Shown here one piece after another: positions 6,693 to 18,267 of a stretch of DNA of 64,000 nucleotides (positions are counted from its first letter, which is position 1; each line of letters opens with the position of its first letter). The position numbers and the translations under genes are program-made. The DNA lies in NCBI GenBank assembly GCA_000165345.1, contig CM000434.1:960001-1024000 (forward strand), in the 5' to 3' direction. The notes below the pieces were generated by a model that had not been told where the DNA came from, made no database searches, and saw only the letters and a program-made list of their open reading frames with translations.

Positions 6693-9600
6693 TTACCACA
6701 AGTCTACATCAATATCCAGATCAGTAAGTGCCACATTTGTATCATCAGCTTGGTTGGAAACCTCTTGTAAGAATGCTGGAGTTTGTACTTCTCCTTCATT
6801 CGCAAACCAGCTTGCCATTTCATCAAGTTTACTGGTTTTGACAGCATTCGCCTTTGGCGCCATATTTACTGTCAATTTTTGCTTTTGTAATGTAGGTCTG
6901 GATTCTGTTGTTCCTCGTTTAGGTTGGGAAACTGATTTCTTTTCTGATAGTTTAAGCTTGACTGTGCTTGCGCTCTTTTCTCTCTTTGCGAGATTTTCTT
7001 GCTTTTGTTTTAATCTTCGTTCTTCATCCAACTTTGTTTTACGTACGAGATCTACTGATGAAATGAAATTCCATAATACACGGAAATAATCTGGCCAAAC
7101 AATTCTTTGAATCGTATTTTGCGGTTCTCCCAAGTATAGTGCCATCTTTTCTAGATTTTCTTTAACACTTTTCATAGTTGCTACTAAATCTTCAATTCTA
7201 GGCTCAGTATCGGAAACAAAGTCTGCTAGAATCTTAGCAATGGGATCCTTTTCTCCCATAGGGCCGGCTCTCTCATTACTTTTCTGAGCTGATTTCATTG
7301 TATCTGTGACCTTATTTAAAGATCCATTCAGTGATTGAATTTCACCTTCAATAGCACCTAAATCGCATTTGGCTGCTTTCTCTACTAAAGCCAATGGCTC
7401 TGCCAAAGAAAGCAATTCTGGCTTATCTCTCCAAATAATCTCTGTGATATATTGAAGCAAAGTTTTAATAGGTTTAGTACTCGAACGAACTTCACATAAC
7501 TTTGATAGTGAACTCATTCTAAAACCTTTAGCTTCTCCCTTTTCTGTATTAAGATTCAAAACATTACCAACTGAAAGAATTATAGAAAATACTTTCTTAA
7601 GCTTTGAATTTGTCTTAATTTCGTTGCAAACTGTAATAATCTCTTGTAAAGGCGTCATTAATTCATTAAAGGAATTGTCAAACGAAAGAATAAACAGCTG
7701 AGCGTTCAAACGAGCGCCAAACATTGGAATACCAATCATTGCAGCTATAAATTGTTCAGGCTTATCCAACTGAGTCAAGTCACCTCCTGCATCAATATAC
7801 TCTTTTACGATTGCAAACTCTTCTGGAGTTGGGGTCATTAAAATCAAAGCTTCTGTAGCTTCTGTATCCAAAATCTTCTTATCAAGATCCAATATAGCAT
7901 CACGCAATTGTTGGAATGTATATGCACTGAACTTTGATAATGCAATACTTATATTGTATGCTCTCTTTGAGTCTGGTAAAATTTGCATGACCTTTGGCTT
8001 CTTTGTCGCCTCTGTCGCCTTCTTTGGTTTTGCTGATTCGATACCAAATACTTCCTCCAAATTTCCGAAATCCAACTTGATTGGTTCTTTAATATCCCAA
8101 ATTGTACCTTGAATATTCTCAACCTTATCCCAATGTAACTTCTTTGTCTTCGATTCTGGACCACTTGGCTTACTTCCTGTCTTTCCTCCAAATTTCCCTG
8201 CCTTTCCTTTTGGGGGTCCTTTTCCTGTTGGGGGTCCTTTCCCACCTGGTGGTCCTTTTCCCCCTGGAGGACCCTTTCCTCCTGGAGGTCCTTTCCCTTT
8301 CCCTGGTGGGCCCTTTCCTTTTGCTGGCGGCGTGCCCTTTGCCGGTGGCGCGCCCTTTGCCGGTGGCGCGCCCTTTGCTTCTGCTGGTTCTGCCTTTGGT
8401 TCTGTAGGAGCACCTTCTTTTGCTTGCGGTGGCGGAGATTTGTTAATAATGTTGTCCATTTTCCCAATACCATCCAGCAATCCAGATAATGCCTTTCCTG
8501 ACTTTACACCTGCTCCTACAATACCTGTGTATACCCCTCCATCCGAAGGTTTGTATTGAATCATTGAGCTAATAAGGGCGCCAACTCCGCTACCTTTAAG
8601 AAGTTCTATCACACCCTGTGAATCAGGAGAAGGAAGTCCCCATTTTGCTGATGCTGTAAGAGCAATTCTAGTTGAAGCGCATACAAATGGCTCAAGATCG
8701 ATCACATAAGGCAACTTTGTTACTACGTTACCCCCATCATCTAAAAATGAAATGCATGCAAGTCTTTCATTACCAGATTCTTCTACATCAGGTTTTGCTC
8801 CTTTAATCTTTGCTAAAATATCATCTGGAGGAAGTTGTTGATCGATACCTACTATCTGAGTCTGAGTTACTTTAACTTGTTTAGCCTCCTCCTTATCTTT
8901 ATTTCTTTGTCTAACTAAAGGAATCAATGCATTTGGAATCCATATTGATTCTTTGAAATAAGCCTTCATTTCTTCCTTACCTGCATAATCTACTAATGGC
9001 AAATAAAATGGTAAACCTGTACTCTCATCTTTTTCTATTTGAGTTAACAACTTCCCTTCTGGAGTTATACAAGGTTCTGGAATCTCCCATTTCTCCAAAA
9101 CTGTCTGAGCTTCTTCATTTATCATCATTGTCACTGACTGCTCTCCCATAACTGGGAATCCTCTTGTTAACTTTGGAATGTTTATTATAGGTAACTTCTT
9201 TCTTTCTGTCTTACTAAATGGAGGAAGAGAAAGCATTGTAGAAACTCCTAGATAGTCTGGACCTGTAATTCTTACTTTCAAGTGAGGTAAAATTGCTGTT
9301 GAACTCACTGTCATACTCTGAAATGACTCTCCATGTAGTGCTCTGATTCTTGAAGTGCATAAAAGTTGTTGAGTTTGGTTATTTGAAAATGGGGTACTTC
9401 TATTTAACCCTCTCAAATTCTTTGGATCAAATAAAAAAGTCTCCAATTGTCGATACCTTAATTGATCAATACTTGGACAAATTGGACTTGCTAATAATGG
9501 TGATTCCTCATACATTATTCTTGTTAATTTACTTGATTTTCCTAAGGTATCGGTAATTATTTCTTTTAAAGATCTCTCTGCTCTTGATTCTAGTGATTCT

Positions 9601-11609
9601 CTTGCATCAATACACTTGTTCTGAAGCTCATGAGCTATATAAGAGTCTGTACAACTGCTTACATTCTCTGTTAAGTATACTTGGGTATCTGCATCTAATA
9701 AAGTTATCAATTCTAATACATATCTTGTATCAGGATGATCAAATCCTAAGTTCTCTCTTCTATATTTATAAACCTCATTATAAAGCTCTAAAGCATATCT
9801 AAAGTTTCCAGCCTGGTGAAAAATACATCCCAAAGCTAGTATATTGTCTTGTACTAATGGAAACTCTCTGTTATTGTAGATCCTCATTAACATATCTAAA
9901 GCTACCATTATATGTTGTACTCCTTGTCTACAATCTCCAAGTAATCGATAAACTAATCCCAAATTTGAATAGCAATCAGCTACACGAGGATGAGGTGGAT
10001 TCTTATTATGATCTCCCAGAACCTGTTTTCTGATTTCCAGACAATTATGTAACATTTCCTTACATTTTTCAAAATTCTTTATTCTGAAATAGTAACTTGC
10101 TGCTGTAGAGTATGCATCACTCATAACTAAGTCTCCTGAACCATAAACTTCATTTACTAATGAAAGATATTTTTCAAGGTAAAATGCTGATGATGTATGA
10201 TCTCTATACATACTACATAGATCAGAGACTGTTAGTACCAGACTACATAATACTGAAGAATCACATGAAACTGATGGTCCTACAGCTGTAACATTTTGAG
10301 TTGAACCTCCAGATCCTGATAAATTTGAGATATTGCTAATATGAGAAGAATCATTTTTTGCATTTTTATTCTCAGAATTGCGATCTGCAACAGCTAAGAT
10401 GGTATTTTCCACAAGAAATCGAAGCTCTTTAAGATATTGTTCTCCTTTACGTAATTCTCCTGTTAAACCACAACATTTAGCAATAATGATTAATTCTACA
10501 ACCATTATACCTTCTAATGGGTGTCCAAGGTACTTGGATAGAAAAGCTCGAGATATTTCATAACAATGTAAAGCATTCAGCATGGCATCTGAGTATTGAG
10601 CTTTCAAAAACTTCTCTAAAGCTGAGCTTCTTAGTCTTTGAATGATTCTTTGAATTTCATGTATTTCTCCATCTCCACGTGATTCTTCAAGACGTTGTAA
10701 AAGAAGAAGGGAATCTGTCATAATTTCAAACTTCTCATTAACAATTTGAGGTCTGGCTTTTGTTGTTTGTCCAAATAAGAGATTATTCTTTTCAGAAGTT
10801 GTTAGTGTAAAGTGTCTACTTGCAAACTCTTCTTTAAATGTTTGACTTAAAGCTGCTAGTGAGTGTTCAGCAGCTTCTGTTAATGCTGGATCCAATACAC
10901 TTACGTGTAGATTAAACATATCATCTTCTCTTTGAGAAATTCGAGCATTTCTTCCTTCTTTTTTTTTCAAGTTACTTTTTCCAGGAGCTTTATCTTGGAA
11001 AAGTAGACGTTTAATAGGGCCAACATCAAAAGGAAGAGTTGATTCAACAAAGGTACTTCTATTACTTAATTCTGAGTAACGTCCATCTTTAGAGAGATTG
11101 TTCTTCAATAGTTTAGATTCACCATTAATAGTGGTTGCAGTAGAAGATGCTCCTGTTGAGCTGGAAGGTAGACTACTAGCTTTGGAATCTTTACTTATAC
11201 TTTTCAGAACAGTTTTTGCTGAGGCTGGCTTTGATGGTACGCTTACTGGAGGAGCGTGACCATTGGATACTGGTGTATCATTTAAAGGTTCTGATGAATT
11301 TTTAGGTATTGGGGCCTTTGGGGCTGGTTTTAATGCAGTAGGAGGTCCTTTTGAGACCTTTGGACCAGGAGGAGAGGGTGATGGAGAAGCTGACTTTGGT
11401 GGAGGTGGTGTTGATGGTTTTGGTGGAGGTGGGGATGATGGTTTTGGTGGAGGAGATTCTGAAAGGTTTGGAGAAGGAGTTGAAGATAATTTTGAAGGTG
11501 GTGGAATTTTCGTTGCTGGTTTCCCTCCAAGTGGTTTAGCAGGGGGAGGCGGTTTTTTTCCACCAGGAGGAGAAAGAGGAGCCTTGCCTGGCACACCCAA
11601 TTTTTTCAT
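6693..11609 (-). CDS. Formin (FH1-FH2) with a proline-rich N-terminus and TPR-like repeats before the FH1 region.
   Basis: FH1 region of (GKGPPGG)n and (AKGAPP)n repeats, followed by an FH2 signature ('KKLHWDKV...IWD', 'GIPMFGARLNAQLF', 'LNLNTEKGEAKGFRMSSL'). N-terminal TPR-like units include 'YSNLGLVYRLLGD'. The N-terminus has a 'PPPPKPSTPPPPK' stretch. Starts at a true ATG at 11607-11609. Confidence 0.8.
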   Translation of the reverse strand: MKKLGVPGKAPLSPPGGKKPPPPAKPLGGKPATKIPPPSKLSSTPSPNLSESPPPKPSSPPPPKPSTPPPPKSASPSPSPPGPKVSKGPPTALKPAPKAPIPKNSSEPLNDTPVSNGHAPPVSVPSKPASAKTVLKSISKDSKASSLPSSSTGASSTATTINGESKLLKNNLSKDGRYSELSNRSTFVESTLPFDVGPIKRLLFQDKAPGKSNLKKKEGRNARISQREDDMFNLHVSVLDPALTEAAEHSLAALSQTFKEEFASRHFTLTTSEKNNLLFGQTTKARPQIVNEKFEIMTDSLLLLQRLEESRGDGEIHEIQRIIQRLRSSALEKFLKAQYSDAMLNALHCYEISRAFLSKYLGHPLEGIMVVELIIIAKCCGLTGELRKGEQYLKELRFLVENTILAVADRNSENKNAKNDSSHISNISNLSGSGGSTQNVTAVGPSVSCDSSVLCSLVLTVSDLCSMYRDHTSSAFYLEKYLSLVNEVYGSGDLVMSDAYSTAASYYFRIKNFEKCKEMLHNCLEIRKQVLGDHNKNPPHPRVADCYSNLGLVYRLLGDCRQGVQHIMVALDMLMRIYNNREFPLVQDNILALGCIFHQAGNFRYALELYNEVYKYRRENLGFDHPDTRYVLELITLLDADTQVYLTENVSSCTDSYIAHELQNKCIDARESLESRAERSLKEIITDTLGKSSKLTRIMYEESPLLASPICPSIDQLRYRQLETFLFDPKNLRGLNRSTPFSNNQTQQLLCTSRIRALHGESFQSMTVSSTAILPHLKVRITGPDYLGVSTMLSLPPFSKTERKKLPIINIPKLTRGFPVMGEQSVTMMINEEAQTVLEKWEIPEPCITPEGKLLTQIEKDESTGLPFYLPLVDYAGKEEMKAYFKESIWIPNALIPLVRQRNKDKEEAKQVKVTQTQIVGIDQQLPPDDILAKIKGAKPDVEESGNERLACISFLDDGGNVVTKLPYVIDLEPFVCASTRIALTASAKWGLPSPDSQGVIELLKGSGVGALISSMIQYKPSDGGVYTGIVGAGVKSGKALSGLLDGIGKMDNIINKSPPPQAKEGAPTEPKAEPAEAKGAPPAKGAPPAKGTPPAKGKGPPGKGKGPPGGKGPPGGKGPPGGKGPPTGKGPPKGKAGKFGGKTGSKPSGPESKTKKLHWDKVENIQGTIWDIKEPIKLDFGNLEEVFGIESAKPKKATEATKKPKVMQILPDSKRAYNISIALSKFSAYTFQQLRDAILDLDKKILDTEATEALILMTPTPEEFAIVKEYIDAGGDLTQLDKPEQFIAAMIGIPMFGARLNAQLFILSFDNSFNELMTPLQEIITVCNEIKTNSKLKKVFSIILSVGNVLNLNTEKGEAKGFRMSSLSKLCEVRSSTKPIKTLLQYITEIIWRDKPELLSLAEPLALVEKAAKCDLGAIEGEIQSLNGSLNKVTDTMKSAQKSNERAGPMGEKDPIAKILADFVSDTEPRIEDLVATMKSVKENLEKMALYLGEPQNTIQRIVWPDYFRVLWNFISSVDLVRKTKLDEERRLKQKQENLAKREKSASTVKLKLSEKKSVSQPKRGTTESRPTLQKQKLTVNMAPKANAVKTSKLDEMASWFANEGEVQTPAFLQEVSNQADDTNVALTDLDIDVDLW
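8190..8400 (-). repeat. Coding tandem repeats (15-21 nt units, GGCGCGCCCTTTGCC-like) that encode the formin FH1 poly-proline tract.
   Basis: Several direct repeats of 'ggtggcgcgccctttgcc' and 'ggtcctttcc' units are visible in the sequence. On the minus strand they translate to GKGPPGG/AKGAPP. Confidence 0.7.
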
Positions 11610-12286
11610 AGTTGAATAATTTTTTTCTGTTTAAATATTAGTTAATTTAGACCTATTTGAGTATAACTCTTTAATTCTTTTCATTTATTGATTCTTTTTT
11701 TTTTTGACTCAGAGTTTTCCCAATCTAGAAAAGGGTCTAGATTGACATTTTCTTTCAATATTGAAGAAAAAAGCGTTATTCTTTGTAATTTGTTAGTTTT
11801 TTAATTTAGGGAATCTTAAAAATATCCACAAGAAATTTAAAAATAAAGAAAAAAAGAAAATGCACCCCTATCTCTGTGGTTTTTATAATTTTAAAATTTG
11901 TTGGGTATTTCCAGAAAATTTTCACCAGAGTTAGGGGTACTAATATATCTACATGCACACAAAGATATTATTGGTGTATTTTGGGAAAAAAAACAACAAA
12001 TATTTTTTTTGACAAGTTTTAGTGTTTGTTTTACTTTGAATTTTTACTATTGTATGTTCTTATTATCTTCTTTGTTAATTTCTATATCTTATAATTTTTT
12101 TTTTTGTAATTCAAAAACACATTTTAATTTATTTACAAATATGACGTGTGTGCATGGTAAGAAATTTATTGGGAATATTAATTTTTAAATTAATATGTTA
12201 AATGGAAAATATATTTAAAGAGAAATGAGAATAAAAGTAAAAAATTAATACATTTTTTTTTTAGATAAAAATATGAAATAGGATAA

Positions 12287-13312
12287 TTATCTAACAAGTT
12301 CCTTTAAAAAATGTTCGTAGTTAAATCCTCCATCATTAGATGGGAAATCCCTAATTAAAAAAAATAGTAAAAATGTTAAAAGCAGGTTGGGGGAGGCTGT
12401 TTGCATGCATTTACTTGCATGGCAAATTATCACTATACCGGCGTACATGCAAGATGTACAAATAGGCGGCATATGGCACGTATTGAAATATATGAACTTA
12501 CTTTAAAAGTATTTCAATTTCTTTATTGGTTAAAACTTCTCCTGTATTAGTTAATAGAGAAGTCAGCTGCTGGCTAGTGATTGATCCAGAGTTCTGTAAT
12601 ATTGGAAGAAATTGATGAATTAGAAATAATATTATAAATAGAAAATGGAGAAGTGGCACAAAGTATATTGAACTTACATTTGAGTCATACGATCTGAAAA
12701 ATTGAACTAGATTTTCAAAAGTGTCTTCTGGATGTACAATAGAATCACAAAATTTTACAAAAGCTTGTAAATCACATGTTTGACCAACACTTGCGACAAA
12801 TCTCTGGACTTCGCTTTCAGATGGCGCTAATCCCTAAAATTAGGAATAAAAGTGATGTTTAATTAATAATAAAAATGGAGTGGAAAACTGACCATTCTTC
12901 TAACAATTTCTCCAATTTTATTGGTTTGAATGGTTGGACCTCCTCCCTATAGTTTAAAAGAGAATAATGGTATTAAAAGATGATATTAAAGATTGCTTGG
13001 GATTAGGAGTTGGGGTTAATATGGCGGAGTAATGCATTTATTTCTCCATTTTACATATCCCAAGGATGACTTGGTAAAAGCTTAACTTACAGCAGCATCT
13101 CTGAATGAAAATTCAATTCTCTCTTTGGACTATAAATATGAAAAAAGAATTAATTTATTTGCAAAAAAAAAAAAAATTAAGTAATGATAATTAATAGTTA
13201 GTCATTTCTATGAGATTCAAGTTTCTTCCCTAGTTTCTCAAAATTCACTAAAGGAAGAAAAAATGGATGGAGCGTAACAATCAAAAGAACTTACAATCTT
13301 GAAAGGTGGCAT
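12287..13312 (-). CDS. Six-exon EF-hand (calmodulin / myosin-light-chain-like) gene of 140 aa. Exons in plus coordinates, 5' to 3' of the gene: 13312..13295, 13129..13091, 12946..12893, 12833..12678, 12593..12502, 12350..12287 (stop TAA at 12289..12287).
   Basis: Conceptual splicing gives 'MPPFKI|SKERIEFSFRDAA|GGGPTIQTNKIGEIVRRM|GLAPSESEVQRFVASVGQTCDLQAFVKFCDSIVHPEDTFENLVQFFRSYDSN|NSGSITSQQLTSLLTNTGEVLTNKEIEILL-K|DFPSNDGGFNYEHFLKELVR*'. This aligns along its length with calmodulin EF-hand pairs (for example FSFRD..GGGPTI..IGEIVRRMG versus [25 protein letters not shown]). Every exon is bounded by GTAAGT-type (or GTCAGT) donors and YAG acceptors, the phases are compatible, and stops flank each exon in frame. 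The track's ORF at 12287..12472 is the last exon plus readthrough of the intron. Confidence 0.7.
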
Positions 13313-13479
13313 CTAAATAACTGTATATAATTATTTTGCTTGCGATCTTCACACAAAATTGATAATCTATAAATTGTCTTTTTTTTTTAACTAAAATAAT
13401 TTGCTCTTGAATTTTTTCCCTCTTTATTTTTCATGCGCTTTTTTCTCTGTATAATAAAATCTTTATTTTATTTATTTCA

Positions 13480-13560
13480 AATATGCCGCCTTTTATTTCA
13501 CGACCAAATGGCAAAGCAGATAAAGGCGGGACTTTAGGGCGGGCAAATGTGCATGTTGAA
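13480..13560. promoter_or_regulatory. Bidirectional promoter core between the two head-to-head EF-hand genes, containing E2F-like GGCGGG motifs.
   Basis: 'atatgccgcc', 'aaaggcgggac' and 'agggcgggcaaatgtgcatg' lie between divergent ATGs at 13312 (minus) and 13878 (plus). Confidence 0.5.
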
Positions 13561-13877
13561 TCTTGTAATGTAAATTTTTCGATACCTTCGAAGTTAAAGA
13601 TTTAATAAAAATAAAAAAATTGTGAGGAATTTCAAAAAAAGAAAATTAAGCAAGAGTTAGAATTTAAATTGTTAAGATAAGAAGAATTTGTGACTGTAAT
13701 TGTTAAATATTGAGATACTGAACCTTTTATTTCTGAGAATTATTAAAGTGTAAGTGTGAGTTAATTTAGGGGACATTGATCAAAGAAAAAAAAGTATTGG
13801 CAAAACTGTTGTAATTGGGTTATTTAAATTTATTCATTTTTTTCTAAAAAAGGAGATTTAAAGTAAGAAAAGTAGAA

Positions 13878-14966
13878 ATGATTTCATTATTAAATGGAAC
13901 AGGATGTGTTTCTTGTACTTCTGGGTGCAAGGTTGTAATTGATGACTACAAAACTACAGGAAGAATAGAATATGGTGTATTTGTAGGATATTATTCTGAA
14001 AGTGAAGAAAGTGATTATGATGAATCAGATGTTGTTACTTTAGATAAGAAGCCTTCAAATATCCAAGATTCATCAAGTGCTGAAGCAGTCTCTATTGAAG
14101 ATGAATTAGAAGAAGGTGAAGCTGATATTATTAGAGAAATGTTTGATAATGCTTCATCTGGAGGAGAATGTTCATTAGATCAGACATGCCATTTAGCACA
14201 TAGAATGGGTCTAGCACCTTCTAAATCAGATCTTGAACAACTTAACGAAGAAACTGGTGGAAAAGTAACTTATGAAGATTTTGAAAGGTGGATTATGTCA
14301 ATTACACATCCAGAAGACCATATTGATTATATGGTTTCATACTTCAGAAAGTACGATTTGAGAGGAAATGGCAAGATTTCAAGACAGCAATTCATTTGGT
14401 TAACAAGTATTGGCGGTGATATTCTTACCAGAGAAGAAGCTGAAGCTATTCTTGATAAGTTGTCCATTGGAGGAGATGTGTACTATGAAGATTTACTCAG
14501 AAAAATTATGGATGTCGAAGCTTCTGATAAGCCTATGGTAAATATTGGAAACAAGAAATCAACGCCTACAAAAATGCCAACAACTAAAGTACTTGTGACA
14601 CAAGTTTCGACTACCATAAGAGATTTAGCTGATAATGAAGCATTCCTTCCTACTATTGATCTTCTTATGGCTTTAAAAGCAACCTATGGAAATGAATTAA
14701 CTGAAGCAGCTGCAAAAGAAGCCACAGATTGTTGTGAAAATCAGGATGAAGCTGCTAAATGTTTACAAGAATTCTACTCAGAGTGGGCACAAAATAAAGG
14801 TATGGTTTCTAGAAAAATTGTTAGAAGTCTACTTATGGTCTGGAAGGCTAAGTTAGACCAGGTTAGTGCTGAGGCTTGGATTACAAGCTTATGTGGAACC
14901 GATGAAAATATTGATATTCAAAGTGTTTTGAACAAGGTAGAATGCAAAACTAACGAGATAAACTAA
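13878..14966 (+). CDS. Intronless 362-aa EF-hand protein, a paralog of the six-exon gene above. The EF-hand core sits between an acidic N-terminal extension and a C-terminal extension.
   Basis: The core 'LAHRMGLAPSKSDLEQL...HPEDHIDYMVSYFRKYDLRGNGKISRQQFIWLTSIGGDILTREEAEAILDKLSIGGDVYYEDLLRKIM' is collinear with 'VRRMGLAPSESEVQRF...HPEDTFENLVQFFRSYDSNNSGSITSQQLTSLLTNTGEVLTNKEIEILLKDFPSNDGGFNYEHFLKELV' from the neighbouring gene. Confidence 0.7.
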   Translation: MISLLNGTGCVSCTSGCKVVIDDYKTTGRIEYGVFVGYYSESEESDYDESDVVTLDKKPSNIQDSSSAEAVSIEDELEEGEADIIREMFDNASSGGECSLDQTCHLAHRMGLAPSKSDLEQLNEETGGKVTYEDFERWIMSITHPEDHIDYMVSYFRKYDLRGNGKISRQQFIWLTSIGGDILTREEAEAILDKLSIGGDVYYEDLLRKIMDVEASDKPMVNIGNKKSTPTKMPTTKVLVTQVSTTIRDLADNEAFLPTIDLLMALKATYGNELTEAAAKEATDCCENQDEAAKCLQEFYSEWAQNKGMVSRKIVRSLLMVWKAKLDQVSAEAWITSLCGTDENIDIQSVLNKVECKTNEIN

Positions 14967-15264
14967 CTTGGAATATTTTAGCATTTTTTTCTTCATAAAT
15001 CTAAAACCTACTTATCCCTTTTTCAAAATCAATATAATCCAATTTTCCATTTTCCCCTTTTCTTACTTATAATTAAATTCTGCATGCATGCAATTAATAT
15101 TTTTTTTTAAAATTTGTGCAAATATTAACATATACCGGAGATTAGGCGCCAACTTATTTAATTTTTCTAATTAAATTTCTTGAATATTCAAAGAATATTG
15201 GGGTTTGAAAGTAAAAAATTAAGTTATCTAAGAACAAATAGTAATTATTTGTTCTAGATATAAA

Positions 15265-18200
15265 ATGAATGGAGGATTTAGGGGGAGAAACCATAATGTA
15301 ACAGAAGATCATTTGAATTACAATATACCAAATAACTCTATACAACCACAATATGTGAATGGCACGTCAACCCATGCTCTTGGAATCCAAGAAGCAACTA
15401 ATCTTACAAATTTAAGGGGAAATTTTATGGGGAATGATGGTTCTGACTATATTCCAGTTCAATTAAGAGCTGCTAATACTAATTTAAATACCAATCATTC
15501 CATTAGTCAGAATGTAAACCAGACAACCTATGGACAAAATCTCTATGATATTAATAGAAACGCTCCTGGACAAATGGGAACAAAGAGCTTTGGAGGATCA
15601 AGAATGGGAGTTGCTCAATCTAAGGGGATGGCTCACACTCAGCAAATTGGTATGCAGTATGGTGATTCTATGCAAAATGGGAATCAAGGCGCCAATATTG
15701 GAGCCATGCATGACTCTAATATTGCTTCTTATGGTGTTGCAGAAATGAGTTATAGGAGTGGAAATAGCAGTAGTAGTATTGGTAGTCAGGGTGTACATAA
15801 TAACATTGATTCCTCTGCTAATACTCAAAATGTCGATATCCACGATATTTCTATCCAGAATTCCTATATGAGTTCACAATCACAACCTAGAACAGTATCA
15901 AAATCGAGATCCATATCACATACTAGAACACAATCTCAGCCTGTAGCTATGGTTCATCAGCACCAATATCAACAACAACAGCAGCAACAGGTTCAACACC
16001 TTAATCATCAACAATACTTTCACTCTCAACAACAGCAGCAGCAGCGTATGCAGACCTTTTCTCAGTCTCAGACTCAGAACCAGACCCAAACTAAGACTCA
16101 GGCCCAAATCCATTCTCAGTCTCATTCCCAATCCCATGTTAAAGCCCCAAATCAGACTCAAACTCAAACTCAGGTTCATTCTCAAACCCAAATCCTATCT
16201 CAATCCCAGCCTCAATCTCGCTCTCATCTTCAGTCTCAGAGTTTGCCAGGTCCACAGTCCCAGACTTATTTTAGCCATACTCAGCCAAATAACAACATGC
16301 AGCCTCCTTCTCACCCGAGAACTCAACCATTACCACATCCCTACTCCCAAGGAAACCCAGGACATCAAGTATCATCTCAAAACTTCTCCAGTTCAAGCAT
16401 TCATCCAAATTTAGTATCAGCTCAAGGATCTCACGCACAAAAAAACTTCCAAAGCTTTTCATCTTCTAATATTAATCAGAGACAAATTGGAGACAATTTG
16501 AAAAATCCAAACCATGGAATTAATGTTGGACCTAATTCTATTTATACAAAAATAGATGATACCGGGGTGGGAACATCAGGAGTAGGAGGCAGTCAGTATA
16601 GGTCGAAGCCTTACTCTCAACAGAGTAATAAATACACTCATCAGCAACAAATGAATCCAGTAAACTCAATATTGCATCCAAACTATTCTCAATCTTACTC
16701 ACAGGGTTCTTCATCTAATTTAGGTGGATTGACAGAGACAGATTCTAAGACAATGTCACAATATATATCAACAATTGGATACAAGACAAGTAACATAGAT
16801 TTGGGAGTTTGTAGCTTTCAAGTCAACGTTCCAAACAATATTTCAGATGAATTAAGAAATTCTATTATTAGATTGGTTCCAAAAGAACAGCTCAACTCGG
16901 TATTTTTCCTTGTTTCATCATTAATTAGCAAGAGTATCAATTTTAGAGACTTTCATGTTCGTTTAATAGCTATTTTGAGGAGTAGTCAACTTGTTGAAAT
17001 TCTTGAAAATATGCTCAGAGATTACTTCCAACTAAGTACCTCTTCTTCAAATACAAATTACACTGGAATTGCTATTCATCAAGGTATCTCAGATTTAAGA
17101 GGTCAAATTTCTCATCCAATTACTACTAATAGCCAAGTTTCTGCAGGAAGATCTGACTATTTATTGGCATCACAATCTCAATACACATCTGGAATAGGCT
17201 CTAATAGTCAAATATATGATGGTACATTATTGAACTCTATGATTTCTCATGCTCACTCAAAAAAGTCTATTAGTAGACATGGAGGACATTATAATATGCA
17301 TGCAAAAGAGGATATATTATTACAGATGTTGAAACATGCAAGATCTAAATCTGTTGCAAGCTTTATAGGTATTGATATGACTGGACCTTCTTCTTATATT
17401 TCTAAAATAATCTCAAATAAAACTATACAAAACAAATCTATGGTATTGGAAGAAGAATCAATATCTCCAGAAACTCTTAATATTTATACGGAAAAACTTA
17501 ATAATTATGGTCGATACCTCCTTTCTTGTGATAGTTCACTTAACTTAGAATTTATGAATTCAAATCAACAATCTGTTACTTCTAAATTAGGGAAAATAGT
17601 TAAGTTTGGTACTCAGCCAGATTTAGAAAAATCAGTTTTCTCAAGTCAAGCAGTAAAGACAATCCATAAGTTAGCATCTTTCTATGTTAGGGATATACTG
17701 AAGTTCATCCTTAATGAGGAAAGTATAAGTAATGATAAGCTGAATGGTAAAGATCTTGAAGAAGAAGAAGAAGAAGAAGAAGAAAAAGGAAAAAAAAGGG
17801 AAGAGATACAACATAATCAAAGGGGACAAAGTGATCGTCAAATTATTGATGATCTGATTGGAAATAGTAATAGTATACAAGTTCAAAAAATGGAGAATTC
17901 AAAAACTGTTAGCCTTATATCTAAAGACTCAAGCTCTAATAATTCATGTAATTTTGGAATGGGTAAATCTATTGGAGGAAAAGGTCTGGGAATGAAGTTA
18001 ACTTTATCTGGTAACGTTTCCTCTGTAAAACCCATAATGATTACTAGTCTATGGTCATGTATATACAAATCCTTACGTTATAATATGAATAGATATAATG
18101 CATGCGAACCTAATGCTTTCCATAATATAATAATTAAGAATCGTCCAGGACATTCTAAAGAACAATGTTCGAATTATATTCTAATTCCAGAGTCAATGTA

Positions 18201-18267
18201 TAGAAGTGTTGAATCCTGGCTTCTTTCAAATGCTTATAATCAATGGGATAAACTTAGTATATTATAA
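15265..18267 (+). CDS. 1000-aa low-complexity protein, Q/S/N-rich with (QT/QS)n and poly-Q/poly-E tracts. The C-terminal third is non-repetitive. Function unknown.
   Basis: ATG at 15265. A hexanucleotide (CAGACT/CAGTCT) coding repeat spans 16051..16250 and a GAA repeat spans 17758..17784. I recognise no domain. Confidence 0.5.
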   Translation: MNGGFRGRNHNVTEDHLNYNIPNNSIQPQYVNGTSTHALGIQEATNLTNLRGNFMGNDGSDYIPVQLRAANTNLNTNHSISQNVNQTTYGQNLYDINRNAPGQMGTKSFGGSRMGVAQSKGMAHTQQIGMQYGDSMQNGNQGANIGAMHDSNIASYGVAEMSYRSGNSSSSIGSQGVHNNIDSSANTQNVDIHDISIQNSYMSSQSQPRTVSKSRSISHTRTQSQPVAMVHQHQYQQQQQQQVQHLNHQQYFHSQQQQQQRMQTFSQSQTQNQTQTKTQAQIHSQSHSQSHVKAPNQTQTQTQVHSQTQILSQSQPQSRSHLQSQSLPGPQSQTYFSHTQPNNNMQPPSHPRTQPLPHPYSQGNPGHQVSSQNFSSSSIHPNLVSAQGSHAQKNFQSFSSSNINQRQIGDNLKNPNHGINVGPNSIYTKIDDTGVGTSGVGGSQYRSKPYSQQSNKYTHQQQMNPVNSILHPNYSQSYSQGSSSNLGGLTETDSKTMSQYISTIGYKTSNIDLGVCSFQVNVPNNISDELRNSIIRLVPKEQLNSVFFLVSSLISKSINFRDFHVRLIAILRSSQLVEILENMLRDYFQLSTSSSNTNYTGIAIHQGISDLRGQISHPITTNSQVSAGRSDYLLASQSQYTSGIGSNSQIYDGTLLNSMISHAHSKKSISRHGGHYNMHAKEDILLQMLKHARSKSVASFIGIDMTGPSSYISKIISNKTIQNKSMVLEEESISPETLNIYTEKLNNYGRYLLSCDSSLNLEFMNSNQQSVTSKLGKIVKFGTQPDLEKSVFSSQAVKTIHKLASFYVRDILKFILNEESISNDKLNGKDLEEEEEEEEEKGKKREEIQHNQRGQSDRQIIDDLIGNSNSIQVQKMENSKTVSLISKDSSSNNSCNFGMGKSIGGKGLGMKLTLSGNVSSVKPIMITSLWSCIYKSLRYNMNRYNACEPNAFHNIIIKNRPGHSKEQCSNYILIPESMYRSVESWLLSNAYNQWDKLSIL
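16051..16250 (+). repeat. Coding hexanucleotide microsatellite (CAG-WCT)n that encodes the QTQTQ/QSQSH tract.
   Basis: Repeating 'cagactcag', 'cagtctcag' and 'caaactcaa' units are visible in the sequence. Confidence 0.7.

What the first reader, a model, noticed from the sequence alone, without database searches (positions are those of the whole stretch)
12287..14966. Head-to-head pair of paralogous EF-hand genes sharing an E2F-motif bidirectional promoter
The intron-rich 140-aa gene (minus) and the intronless 362-aa gene (plus, 13878..14966) diverge from a 565-nt spacer carrying GGCGGG/GCCGCC motifs. Their EF-hand cores are clearly collinear ('RRMGLAPSESEVQRF...HPED...FRSYDSNNSGSITSQQL...NDGGFNYEHFLKEL' versus 'HRMGLAPSKSDLEQL...HPED...FRKYDLRGNGKISRQQF...IGGDVYYEDLLRKI'). 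This indicates an inverted duplication after which one copy kept or gained five introns and the other is intronless with long terminal extensions. The latter may be a retrocopy-like event, or reflect differential intron loss. A light-chain-like gene with an extended N-terminus beside a short one echoes the MLC1/MTIP versus ELC pairing of apicomplexan myosin A, which hints at co-regulated motor accessory subunits.
Basis: partly seen in the sequence, partly recalled or inferred. Interest (0 to 1): 0.6.

Follow-up and report, generated by a model that had tools for sequence, protein, structure and literature searches.

The report
Paired myosin light-chain genes in Cryptosporidium
Two back-to-back Cryptosporidium parvum genes encode distantly related myosin light chains of two ancient types, next to the formin that nucleates actin for gliding; the pair and its promoter motifs are real but largely ordinary, apart from five retained ancient introns and an extra domain on one protein.

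Summary
The window is C. parvum chromosome 6. A six-exon, 140-aa gene (S, minus strand) and an intronless 362-aa gene (L, plus strand) diverge from a 565-nt spacer carrying GCCGCC, two GGCGGG and TGCATG. The proteins share 33% identity over 123 residues.

Both proteins belong to the MLC1/MTIP-like light-chain superfamily, but to different ancient subfamilies, and they are not recent duplicates.
- L is the MLC1/MTIP orthologue. It has the MTIP_N domain and an N-terminal cysteine-rich anchor. It also has an extra C-terminal domain, found full-length only in Cryptosporidium, that is most likely a second, degenerate MLC1-like module.
- S is not ELC-like. Its best solved relative is Toxoplasma MLC4, a light chain of MyoL in the preconoidal ring.

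Four of S's five introns sit at the same position and phase as introns in a Babesia short-type gene and a coccidian MLC1 gene. S therefore kept ancestral introns and L lost them.

The pair, its flanks and the spacer's motif block are conserved in seven Cryptosporidium species. GGCGGG, however, lies upstream of most genes in this window, and bidirectional promoters are reported as common in this genome. S sits directly upstream of the formin CpFRM1. Interest is moderate.

The parts
12287..13312 (-). Gene S: 140-aa short light chain of the MLC4 type. Six exons: 13295-13312, 13091-13129, 12893-12946, 12678-12833, 12502-12593, 12287-12350. Five introns of 165, 144, 59, 84 and 151 nt, in phases 0, 0, 0, 0, 2.
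   Evidence: Spliced model with GT..AG at every intron. The same gene is called in two NCBI assemblies. Exon structure is conserved in 7 species. Pfam gives EF-hand_7, with MTIP_N below threshold. The best PDB hit of the family profile is TgMLC4.
13313..13877 (.). 565-nt divergent intergenic spacer (GC 26%), the presumed shared promoter region.
   Evidence: The head-to-head arrangement is conserved in 7 species, with spacers of 265-682 nt.
13485..13570 (.). Conserved motif block: GCCGCC (13485-13490), GGCGGG (13525-13530 and 13538-13543), and TGCATGTTGAATCT (from 13550).
   Evidence: Same order in all 7 species. In C. serpentis the proximal site is GGGGCGCC, and C. felis and C. serpentis lack the upstream CCGCC. 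The stretch TGCATG[TC]T.AATCT is nearly invariant. GGCGGG and GCATGC are published C. parvum upstream motifs, E2F-like and AP2_1.
13878..14108 (+). Gene L, residues 1-77: N-terminal extension with invariant Cys10, Cys13, Cys17 and RIEYGVFVGYYSE, followed by an acidic linker.
   Evidence: Invariant columns. It aligns with the Cys pair and the aromatic motif of coccidian MLC1 and haemosporidian MTIP N-extensions. HMMER alignments of other taxa's MLC1-like proteins extend into it. TgMLC1 C8 and C11 are palmitoylated and needed for GAP45 binding.
14109..14519 (+). Gene L, residues 78-214: canonical MLC1/MTIP module, four degenerate EF-hands.
   Evidence: Pfam MTIP_N 49.8 bits against a cut-off of 27. 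Top PDB sequence hits are TgMLC1 and PfMTIP, E about 1e-17. Foldseek top hits are 6tj5_B and 6ycy_B.
14586..14942 (+). Gene L, residues about 237-355: C-terminal extension, read here as a second, degenerate MLC1/MTIP-like module.
   Evidence: Highly conserved within the genus. hhalign against L's own core gives P 1.6e-4, collinear over 106 columns. Its HMM hits MLC1-like modules of other taxa, E 1.8e-8 to 3.6e-7, in a 171-sequence panel pre-selected for MLC1/calmodulin-like proteins. Against the whole PDB, six of its seven hits at E<=10, and all the best six, are MTIP chains (E 0.036-0.16). The AF2 model has helix-loop(beta)-helix pairs at pLDDT 73-88, and the Foldseek top 3 are MTIP, though not significant. 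No protein outside Cryptosporidium spans it.
6693..11609 (-). Context: 1638-aa TPR + FH1 + FH2 formin, most likely CpFRM1 (cgd6_4150). It lies directly downstream of S on the same strand.
   Evidence: Pfam FH2 259.8 bits plus TPR_12. CpFRM1 is reported as a chromosome 6 gene with TPR-like and FH2 domains. It is syntenic in all species examined whose contig extends that far.

Best explanation
The locus holds two ancient paralogues of the apicomplexan MLC1/MTIP-like myosin light-chain superfamily. They are transcribed divergently from one short intergenic region.

**Gene L (362 aa)** is the Cryptosporidium orthologue of TgMLC1/PfMTIP.
- Its N-terminal Cys-rich extension is inferred to be acylated and to tether the motor to the inner membrane complex and GAP45.
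- Its central module is inferred to clamp the MyoA tail.
- A C-terminal domain, not found full-length outside Cryptosporidium, is a second, strongly degenerate copy of the same module. I infer that it binds another helix, either a further site on the myosin neck or a partner protein.

**Gene S (140 aa)** belongs to the short, anchor-less MLC4-type subfamily.
- Relatives occur in Toxoplasma (MLC4) and Babesia.
- By analogy with Toxoplasma, it is inferred to be a light chain of the MyoL-like protein at the preconoidal ring, where FRM1 also sits.
- None of the EF-hand loops in either protein looks able to bind calcium.

**Evolution.** The split between the two subfamilies predates the apicomplexan radiation. 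S kept ancestral introns and L lost all of its introns.

**Regulation.** The shared spacer carries a conserved block of E2F-like GGCGGG sites plus a TGCATG element. This is the standard C. parvum promoter vocabulary and probably drives both genes.

**Shown versus inferred.**
- Shown: gene models, family assignment, conservation, intron homology and motif conservation.
- Inferred: binding partners, localisation, acylation and bidirectional promoter activity.
For: **Gene models and source.**

**L is MLC1/MTIP-type.**
- MTIP_N is above the Pfam threshold.
- TgMLC1 and MTIP are the top PDB hits by sequence and by fold.
- The N-extension is homologous to those of other MLC1/MTIP proteins.
- Some sources already name the orthologues 'myosin light chain 1/MLC1'.

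**S is MLC4-type.**
- The S-family profile has a single PDB hit at E<=1e-18: TgMLC4, E 3.8e-21. It shares the signature GLAPSE...G..CDL..F..FC...H.ED.
- The TgMLC4 fragment scores S 76 bits, P0065 74, P0091 71, Babesia short 61, TgMLC1 54, the L cores 36-38 and ELC 19.
- In the NJ trees, the smallest clade holding S and MLC4 has a median of 13.5 of 90 taxa, against 69.5 for S and L.
- TgMLC4 binds the MyoL neck in structure 9YA0, and MyoL has Cryptosporidium orthologues.

**Ancient divergence.**

**Intron homology**.
- Babesia introns at YA|GG and VREL|GCAPSE match S introns 2 and 3, all phase 0.
- Coccidian MLC1 introns at FDPS|K (phase 0) and ALA|A (phase 2) match S introns 4 and 5.
- Hepatocystis MTIP has an intronless CDS.

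**Second module in L.**. Proteins with an N-terminal anchor and two modules also occur in Siedleckia and in a metagenomic protein.

**Synteny and promoter footprint in 7 species.**. Published motifs.
Against: - Deep branches of the tree are unresolved. An exclusive S+MLC4 clade appears in 12% of bootstraps, the same as S+L. Orthology of S with TgMLC4 therefore rests on best-hit ranking and one motif signature.
- Only residues 31-141 of TgMLC4 align. Its C-lobe is divergent.
- C. parvum S scores as high against calmodulin as against L by BLASTP.
- Evidence for the second module in L is individually weak. PDB E-values are 0.04-0.16, Foldseek E is at least 0.12, hhalign probability is 51%, the first 34 residues of the domain model have pLDDT below 50, and the panel behind the strongest E-values was pre-selected for MLC1/calmodulin-like proteins.
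- It does not specifically match the second modules of the Siedleckia protein (E 1.7).
- No transcript, chromatin, localisation or interaction data for these two genes were available. Promoter sharing, acylation and myosin partners are untested.
Confidence: 0.68

Rival explanations
1. First reader's model. A Cryptosporidium-lineage inverted tandem duplication produced both genes. The short copy serves as the essential light chain (ELC) of MyoA and the long copy as MLC1/MTIP, and the two are co-regulated as subunits of one motor.
For: - The genes are adjacent, head-to-head, and collinear at 33% identity.
- L's core HMM ranks S second among single-module hits (92 bits, against 102 for P0021 and about 83 for the others).
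- The pairing was not seen at the Babesia short-type locus or the coccidian MLC1 locus, so adjacency could be lineage-specific.
- S has the size of an ELC and, like an ELC, lacks an anchor.
Against: - S is no closer to L than to MLC1-like modules of other phyla-level lineages.
- S and L are sisters in 9.5-12% of bootstraps.
- S's best relatives are short-type proteins of Toxoplasma (MLC4) and Babesia. It shares a Cys-containing signature with them, and two intron positions with the Babesia gene.
- S against TgELC1 and TgELC2 gives 59 and 42 bits, and the C. serpentis orthologue gives 24 and 18 bits. An S+ELC clade appears in 0% of bootstraps.
- S lacks the calcium-binding EF1 loop of ELC1.
Confidence: 0.12
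2. S is a generic calmodulin-like calcium sensor with no specific myosin role. Its resemblance to L is ordinary EF-hand similarity, and the adjacency is coincidental.
For: - S against P. falciparum calmodulin gives 78.6 bits and 32% identity, equal to S against L.
- Calmodulins dominate S's single-sequence PDB hit list.
- Several databases label the orthologues 'Calmodulin'.
Against: - The EF loops of S are degenerate. EF1 reads DAAGGGPTIQTN, EF3 ends in Gln rather than Glu as in MLC1 and MTIP, and EF2 and EF4 are vestigial (sequence).
- The GLAPS and HPED signatures and the EF2 deletion are shared with MLC1, MTIP and MLC4.
- With family profiles, MLC4 and MLC1 outrank calmodulin.
- C. serpentis S scores 47 bits against calmodulin and 71-77 against L.
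- S falls inside the MLC1-like clade in the NJ tree.
Confidence: 0.08
3. The C-terminal 150 residues of L are an unrelated, genus-specific helical domain, for example a docking domain for a Cryptosporidium-specific partner, and not a decayed light-chain module.
For: - No protein outside Cryptosporidium spans it.
- Pfam finds nothing there.
- Foldseek E-values are not significant.
- hhalign probability is only 51% against the core and 3-19% against S.
Against: - Independent weak signals all point the same way and are collinear over about 100 residues. Six of its seven PDB sequence hits, and all the best six, are MTIP chains. Its HMM hits MLC1-like modules at E 1e-8 to 1e-7. tblastn of S hits the C. 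serpentis C-terminus at E 1.5e-5. The Foldseek top 3 are MTIP and all top 50 are EF-hand proteins.
- The predicted secondary structure is two helix-loop-helix pairs with short beta bridges.
Confidence: 0.2

Closest known systems
TgMLC1 / PfMTIP, the regulatory-type light chain of apicomplexan myosin A (Pfam PF21550 MTIP_N; PDB 6TJ5, 6YCY, 2QAC)
   Same: - Gene L has the MTIP_N domain above threshold and about 30% identity over the whole module.
- It has the same degenerate EF-hands, with Gln at EF3 position 12.
- It has an N-terminal extension with a Cys cluster and an aromatic motif aligned to those of MLC1 and MTIP.
- Its CDS is intronless, like the haemosporidian MTIP examined here.
   Different: - L carries about 150 extra C-terminal residues forming a second, degenerate module. 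MLC1 and MTIP end right after the fourth EF-hand.
- The N-extension motif reads EYGVFVGYY rather than NYFMWMPGFEW.
- Binding to MyoA and GAP45 is untested.
TgMLC4 (TGME49_294390), light chain bound to the MyoL neck in the Toxoplasma preconoidal ring P2 (PDB 9YA0)
   Same: - It is the best solved relative of gene S by family profile (E 3.8e-21), with about 36% identity over 106 residues.
- It shares the motif GLAPSE...G..CDL..F..FC...H.ED.
- Both are short and lack a membrane-anchoring extension.
- MyoL and FRM1, its ring neighbours in Toxoplasma, both have Cryptosporidium orthologues, and CpFRM1 is the gene next to S.
   Different: - TgMLC4 is 172 aa with about 30 extra N-terminal residues, and its C-lobe does not align.
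- Orthology has weak bootstrap support (12%).
- Localisation and partner of S are unknown.
TgELC1/ELC2 and PfELC, essential light chains of MyoA
   Same: They are small (about 134 aa), lack an anchor, bind a myosin neck, and have a shortened EF2 region.
   Different: - Identity to S is only 25%.
- ELC1 has a canonical calcium-binding EF1 (DTDGDGEISGRD) that S lacks.
- ELCs lack the GLAPS, HPED and Cys signatures.
- ELCs never group with S in the trees.
C. parvum E2F-like (GGCGGG) and AP2_1 (GCATGC) upstream motifs, and bidirectional regulatory regions
   Same: The spacer carries two GGCGGG sites, a CCGCC and a TGCATG. These match published motif cores and lie 340-353 nt upstream of L and about 210-230 nt from S's ATG.
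   Different: There is nothing distinctive. The same hexamer lies upstream of most genes in this window. No binding or accessibility data for this spacer were available.
Multi-module MLC1-like proteins: Siedleckia nematoides 395-aa protein, Besnoitia BESB_044770, TgMLC3
   Same: - They contain the same MLC1-like module, in some cases repeated.
- The Siedleckia protein has the same layout as L: N-terminal Cys-rich anchor with an EVGVFVP motif, then module, linker and module.
   Different: - The second modules of those proteins are far less degenerate and show no specific match to L's C-terminal domain (E 1.7).
- TgMLC3 and BESB_044770 have unrelated long N-terminal regions.

Membership tests
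MLC1/MTIP myosin A light chain | Pfam MTIP_N (PF21550) at or above the gathering score | tested here: met
   L scores 49.8 bits against a cut-off of 27. S scores 22.2 bits, below the cut-off, so S does not meet this feature.
MLC1/MTIP myosin A light chain | Apicomplexan-specific N-terminal extension with acylatable cysteines and a conserved aromatic motif | tested here: met
   L has invariant C10, C13, C17 and EYGVFVGYY, aligned to the C8/C11 region and the YFMWMPGFEW motif of coccidian MLC1 and MTIP. HMMER alignments extend into it. S has no extension. Acylation itself is not testable here.
MLC1/MTIP myosin A light chain | Closest solved structures are MLC1 and MTIP rather than calmodulin or centrin | tested here: met
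   For L, TgMLC1 and MTIP score E 6e-17 to 3e-14, and the next hit is centrin at 2e-8. The Foldseek top 15 are all MLC1 or MTIP.
MLC1/MTIP myosin A light chain | Protein ends after the fourth EF-hand (single module) | tested here: not met
   L continues for about 150 residues, conserved across the genus. This is the variant feature.
MLC1/MTIP myosin A light chain | Binds the C-terminal tail of MyoA and GAP45 | not testable with these tools
MLC4-type short light chain (MyoL / preconoidal ring) | Best relative among solved structures is TgMLC4, with TgMLC4's best match in a reference panel being S | tested here: met
   The A1 profile's only PDB hit at E<=1e-18 is 9ya0_QA. The TgMLC4 fragment ranks S_parvum first at 76 bits, with L at 36-38 bits.
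MLC4-type short light chain (MyoL / preconoidal ring) | Exclusive clade with TgMLC4 in a phylogeny | tested here: inconclusive
   NJ bootstrap support is 12%. S and MLC4 do usually sit in one small neighbourhood, median 13.5 of 90 taxa.
MLC4-type short light chain (MyoL / preconoidal ring) | Binds the MyoL neck and localises to the preconoidal ring | not testable with these tools
   Known only for Toxoplasma.
Essential light chain (ELC) of MyoA | Specific sequence similarity to TgELC1, TgELC2 or PfELC | tested here: not met
   S against ELC1 gives 58.9 bits at 25% identity, and against ELC2 42 bits. C. serpentis S gives 24 and 18 bits. An S+ELC clade appears in 0 of 200 bootstraps.
Essential light chain (ELC) of MyoA | Functional calcium-binding first EF-hand (reported for TgELC1) | tested here: not met
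   S's EF1 loop reads DAAGGGPTIQTN, with no acidic or polar ligands at loop positions 3 and 5 (sequence). The TgELC1 loop is DTDGDGEISGRD, and calcium binding at EF-I is reported in PMC4600101.
E2F-motif bidirectional promoter of C. parvum | Presence of the published E2F-like core GGCGGG in the divergent spacer | tested here: met
   Two copies, at 13525 and 13538. The motif definition comes from PMC3734150.
E2F-motif bidirectional promoter of C. parvum | Conservation of the motif at orthologous positions | tested here: met
   One to three GGCGGG or GGGGCGCC sites lie next to TGCATG[TC]T in all 7 species.
E2F-motif bidirectional promoter of C. parvum | Open chromatin, E2F/DP binding, and divergent transcription from the same region | not testable with these tools
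   No ATAC, RNA or ChIP data were accessible for this locus. The supplements were not held or were cut.

The most novel reading that the evidence does not exclude
Cryptosporidium keeps a compact three-gene motility cluster: CpFRM1, the MLC4-type gene S and the MLC1-type gene L. The cluster would be driven from one conserved E2F/TGCATG block, possibly with S and FRM1 on one polycistronic transcript. In this reading, L is a 'double' light chain whose second, degenerate module occupies a second site on the MyoA neck, for instance in place of or alongside an ELC. That would be a light-chain arrangement not described for any class XIV myosin.
Probability: 0.15. Interest if true: 0.65.

Novelty: new variant of a known kind. 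Interest (0 to 1): 0.4.

Why it matters
MyoA and its light chains are being pursued as drug targets across Apicomplexa, including Cryptosporidium (PMC13416249). No paper in the searched library describes the Cryptosporidium light chains.

- If L really carries a second built-in light-chain module, the Cryptosporidium MyoA lever arm or its anchoring differs from the Toxoplasma and Plasmodium models. Reconstitution and inhibitor work should then use the correct subunits.
- Assigning S to the MLC4 type gives a testable marker for the Cryptosporidium preconoidal ring, where actin nucleation by FRM1 has been imaged.
- S is absent, truncated or mis-spliced in several public annotations, so it is easily missed in proteomic and comparative studies.
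- The locus is a clean case of one paralogue keeping five ancestral introns in a very intron-poor genome while its neighbour lost all of them.
- The promoter aspect adds nothing new beyond an example of a conserved E2F/TGCATG block.

Tried and rejected
1. **Word-indexed homologue searches** with L, S and a mixed short-type alignment returned only Cryptosporidium proteins and the sequences I had put in. They gave no named outgroups.
2. **The first NJ bootstrap** with Biopython timed out. I rewrote NJ in numpy. The deep nodes remained unresolved, so I do not claim a resolved phylogeny.
3. **The full-length AF2 model of L** is poor (mean pLDDT 56.8). I used it only for its confident segments and modelled the C-terminal domain separately.
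4. **snoRNAs or other RNAs in S's retained introns.** Rfam found nothing credible (one miRNA-family match at E 0.21), and the introns are not conserved in sequence beyond close species. Rejected.
5. **P0091 as a coccidian MLC4 orthologue.** It hits TgMLC1 and MLC4 equally, so I left it as an unassigned short-type relative.
6. **Specific orthology between L's second module and the second modules of the Siedleckia and metagenomic proteins.** Not supported (E 1.7).
7. **Head-to-head pairing outside Cryptosporidium.** It was absent within the flanks available for the Babesia short-type gene and the coccidian MLC1 gene. The Hepatocystis MTIP contig starts 109 nt upstream of the gene and is uninformative.
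8. **Expression or chromatin data for the two genes.** Gene IDs other than cgd6_4150 could not be confirmed, and the supplements were absent or cut.
10. **Retrocopy origin of L.** There is no positive evidence. The conserved upstream block and the synteny are equally compatible with in-place intron loss, so this stays undecided.

Full report
**Source and gene models.** The 362-aa ORF at 13878..14966 is identical to a protein encoded on C. parvum chromosome 6 (BX526834.1, CP029785.1, CM109966.1). Window GC is about 30%. On the minus strand I assembled a six-exon gene: 13295-13312, 13091-13129, 12893-12946, 12678-12833, 12502-12593 and 12287-12350. Every intron is GT..AG, and the 423-nt CDS encodes 140 aa. 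Two recent NCBI assemblies call the same 140-aa gene over the same 1026 nt. The original chromosome 6 annotation and the Logan gene calls miss it. I call the genes S (short) and L (long).

**Is the similarity real and specific?** BLASTP of S against L gives 33% identity over 123 residues with one gap, E 1e-21. Profiles of the two families align with probability 99.6%, E 1.6e-24.
- Pfam places L in MTIP_N (49.8 bits, cut-off 27) plus an EF-hand pair. S matches EF-hand_7, with MTIP_N below threshold at 22.2 bits.
- For L, the best solved relatives are TgMLC1 and PfMTIP (E about 1e-17), far ahead of centrin and calmodulin. Foldseek agrees.
- For S alone, calmodulin, TgMLC1 and TgMLC4 score alike. 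C. parvum S scores 78.6 bits against P. falciparum calmodulin and 77.0 against L. The plain pairwise score is therefore not above generic EF-hand similarity.
- What is specific is the shared signature: GLAPS, HPED, a 4-residue deletion in EF2, and Gln instead of Glu at EF3 loop position 12, as in MLC1 and MTIP.
- Family profiles rank MLC4 and MLC1 above calmodulin. In an NJ tree of 129 modules, S and L both fall in an MLC1-like clade separate from the calmodulin-like proteins.

**Conservation of the locus.** I fetched the orthologous loci from C. serpentis (gastric clade), C. ryanae, C. xiaoi, C. ubiquitum, C. felis and C. canis.
- S and L are head-to-head in all six. Wherever the contig reaches, the pair sits between the formin and the homologue of the 1000-aa gene.
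- All five S introns are at the same positions and phases (0, 0, 0, 0, 2), with GT..AG, in all seven species.
- Intron lengths vary from 47 to 308 nt. Intron sequences are not conserved beyond close relatives, and Rfam finds nothing credible in them.

**Are S and L recent duplicates?** No.
- An exhaustive HMMER search with the L family profile found 162 proteins at E<=1e-3. Apart from Cryptosporidium orthologues, these are MLC1/MTIP-like modules. They include Hepatocystis MTIP, a Lankesteria gregarine protein, TgMLC3, a Besnoitia 983-aa protein, a Siedleckia 395-aa protein, a Babesia gibsoni 148-aa protein and a Chromera protein.
- The S HMM scores L cores at 72-92 bits and modules from other taxa at 80-93 bits.
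- In a BLASTP panel, S's best matches are short, anchor-less proteins: P0091 at 95 bits, P0065 at 87 and Babesia at 82. L follows at 77-82 and TgMLC1 at 74. L's best matches are TgMLC1 (77) and S (77).
- NJ bootstraps give S and L each as monophyletic (100% and 99.5%), but as sisters in only 9.5-12%.

**What S is.**
- The S-family profile has one PDB hit at E<=1e-18: TgMLC4 (TGME49_294390, chain 9ya0_QA), E 3.8e-21. The alignment shows GLAPSE(Q/A)E(V/I)..F...V.G.CDL..F..FC...VH.ED in both.
- In the reverse direction, the TgMLC4 fragment scores S_parvum highest (76 bits, 36% identity). P0065 scores 74, P0091 71, Babesia short 61, TgMLC1 54, the L cores 36-38 and the ELCs 19.
- The Cys in 'G..C' is shared by the short-type proteins and absent from canonical MLC1 and MTIP.
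- In bootstrapped trees, the smallest clade containing S and MLC4 has a median of 13.5 of 90 taxa, against 69.5 for S and L. The exclusive S+MLC4 clade has only 12% support.
[quoted passage not shown] MyoL is reported to have Cryptosporidium orthologues.
- S is not ELC-like. It is 25% identical to TgELC1, and the C. serpentis orthologue scores 24 bits. An S+ELC clade never appears. S also lacks the EF1 loop that binds calcium in ELC1.

**What L is.**
- The N-terminal 40 residues are almost invariant in the genus (C10, C13, C17 and RIEYGVFVGYYSE).
- They align with the CxxC and aromatic motif of coccidian MLC1 and haemosporidian MTIP. HMMER alignments to MLC1-like proteins of other taxa run into this region.
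- In TgMLC1 the corresponding C8 and C11 are palmitoylated and required for GAP45 binding.
- Residues 78-214 are the canonical module.

**L's C-terminal extension.** Residues about 237-355 are highly conserved in the genus. No protein outside Cryptosporidium spans them. Several independent weak signals say this is a second, decayed copy of the same module:
- tblastn of S hits the C. serpentis C-terminus at E 1.5e-5;
- hhalign against L's own core gives P 1.6e-4, collinear over 106 columns;
- its HMM hits MLC1-like modules of other taxa at E 1.8e-8 to 3.6e-7, including TgMLC3, in a panel of 171 proteins pre-selected as MLC1/calmodulin-like;
- against the whole PDB, six of the seven hits at E<=10, and all the best six, are MTIP chains (E 0.036-0.16);
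- the AF2 domain model (pLDDT 73-88 over residues 35-131) shows two helix-loop(beta)-helix pairs, and its Foldseek list is entirely EF-hand proteins with MTIP in ranks 1-3, although E is at least 0.12.

The relic of the EF3 loop is still readable (NKGMVSRK against GNGKISRQ). A Siedleckia protein and a metagenomic protein have the same layout of anchor, module, linker and module. Their second modules do not specifically match L's.

**Introns.**
- The Babesia gibsoni short-type gene has an annotated 36-nt intron at VREL|GCAPSE. A second 36-nt GT..AG segment at YA|GG is present in the annotated protein but absent from a spliced version. Both align exactly with S introns 2 and 3, phase 0.
- A genomic contig of a TgMLC1-like coccidian gene has introns after FDPS (phase 0) and inside the last Ala codon of DALAA (phase 2). 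These match S introns 4 (YDSN|, phase 0) and 5 (ILL-K, phase 2) (and direct reading).
- All four introns seen in these two genes therefore coincide with one of S's five positions. With about 390 possible position-phase slots, each coincidence has a chance of about 0.013.
- S thus kept ancestral introns. L lost them, as did the one haemosporidian MTIP examined (Hepatocystis), whose CDS is intronless. Whether this happened in place or by retroposition cannot be decided.

**The spacer.**
- GGCGGG occurs 20 times in the window against 1.0 expected. Fifteen of the 20 are intergenic although only 24% of the window is, mostly 135-550 nt upstream of an ORF.
- In the seven species the spacer keeps one ordered block. 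In most species it starts with CCGCC. It then has one to three GGCGGG sites (GGGGCGCC in C. serpentis). A nearly invariant TGCATG[TC]T.AATCT follows 6-7 nt later.
- GGCGGG (E2F-like) and GCATGC (AP2_1) are published C. parvum upstream motifs.
- E2F motifs dominate sporozoite open chromatin, and more than half of regulatory peaks are annotated as bidirectional.
- The block is a genuine phylogenetic footprint, but of the generic kind for this genome.

**Context.** The 1638-aa gene downstream of S on the same strand has TPR and FH2 domains. It is almost certainly CpFRM1, cgd6_4150. The 677 nt between S's stop and its ATG are 21% GC and hold no E2F-like motif. In Toxoplasma, FRM1, MyoL and MLC4 are all components of the preconoidal ring P2.

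**Verdict.** This is a conserved pair of ancient light-chain paralogues, MLC1/MTIP-type and MLC4-type, and neither a recent inverted duplication nor an MLC1/ELC pair. Partners, localisation, acylation and promoter sharing remain inferred.

Noticed in passing
window 6693-13312 (-): Gene S lies directly upstream of, and on the same strand as, the TPR+FH2 formin that is almost certainly CpFRM1 (cgd6_4150). The 677-nt gap (11610-12286) is 21% GC and has no GGCGG or GCGC motif. In Toxoplasma, FRM1, MyoL and MLC4 all sit in the preconoidal ring P2. FRM1, S and L therefore form a conserved three-gene motility cluster, and S-FRM1 could be a dicistron of the kind reported for C. parvum.
   Followed up: partly
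window 13525/13538, 19136/19150, 63652/63667: GGCGGG sites often come in pairs 13-15 nt apart, on the same or opposite strands. This suggests paired E2F-like sites as a recurring promoter layout.
   Followed up: no
window 12351-12501 (intron 5 of S); L009, L010, L012 orthologous introns: In the intestinal-clade species (C. parvum, ubiquitum, felis, canis) intron 5 is long (138-156 nt) and contains GCATGC/TGCATG (AP2_1-like) motifs, several of them in C. canis. In C. serpentis, ryanae and xiaoi it is 62-80 nt and lacks them. This may be an intronic regulatory element.
   Followed up: partly
L004, L002, L007, L008, L009, L010, L011, L012 (orthologous S genes): Gene S is absent from the original C. 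parvum chromosome 6 annotation. It is truncated, read through or mis-spliced in public models for C. ubiquitum (85 aa), felis (93), serpentis (88), meleagridis (130), bovis (168), xiaoi (182), canis (164) and ryanae (239). The correct products are 134-140 aa.
   Followed up: yes
L013 6001-6483: The Babesia gibsoni model BgAZ_110880 (148 aa) keeps a 36-nt in-frame GT..AG intron (VGYSSQPRRGLQ). A 140-aa version lacking it exists in a sequencing-run assembly.
   Followed up: partly
window 15265-18267 (+) and its upstream 14967-15264: A 1000-aa Gln/Ser/Asn-rich protein with no Pfam domain. It is syntenic but very variable in length across species (462-1224 aa). Its upstream region has GGCGCC (15145) and a TGCATGCATGCA run (15081-15092).
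   Followed up: no
P0020 (711 aa, transcriptome), P0032 (Besnoitia BESB_044770, 983 aa), P0022 (Siedleckia, 395 aa), P0074 (462 aa, metagenome): Proteins carrying two or three MLC1-like modules exist in several apicomplexan lineages. Some have N-terminal Cys-rich anchors. I saw no description of them as a class in the papers searched.
   Followed up: partly
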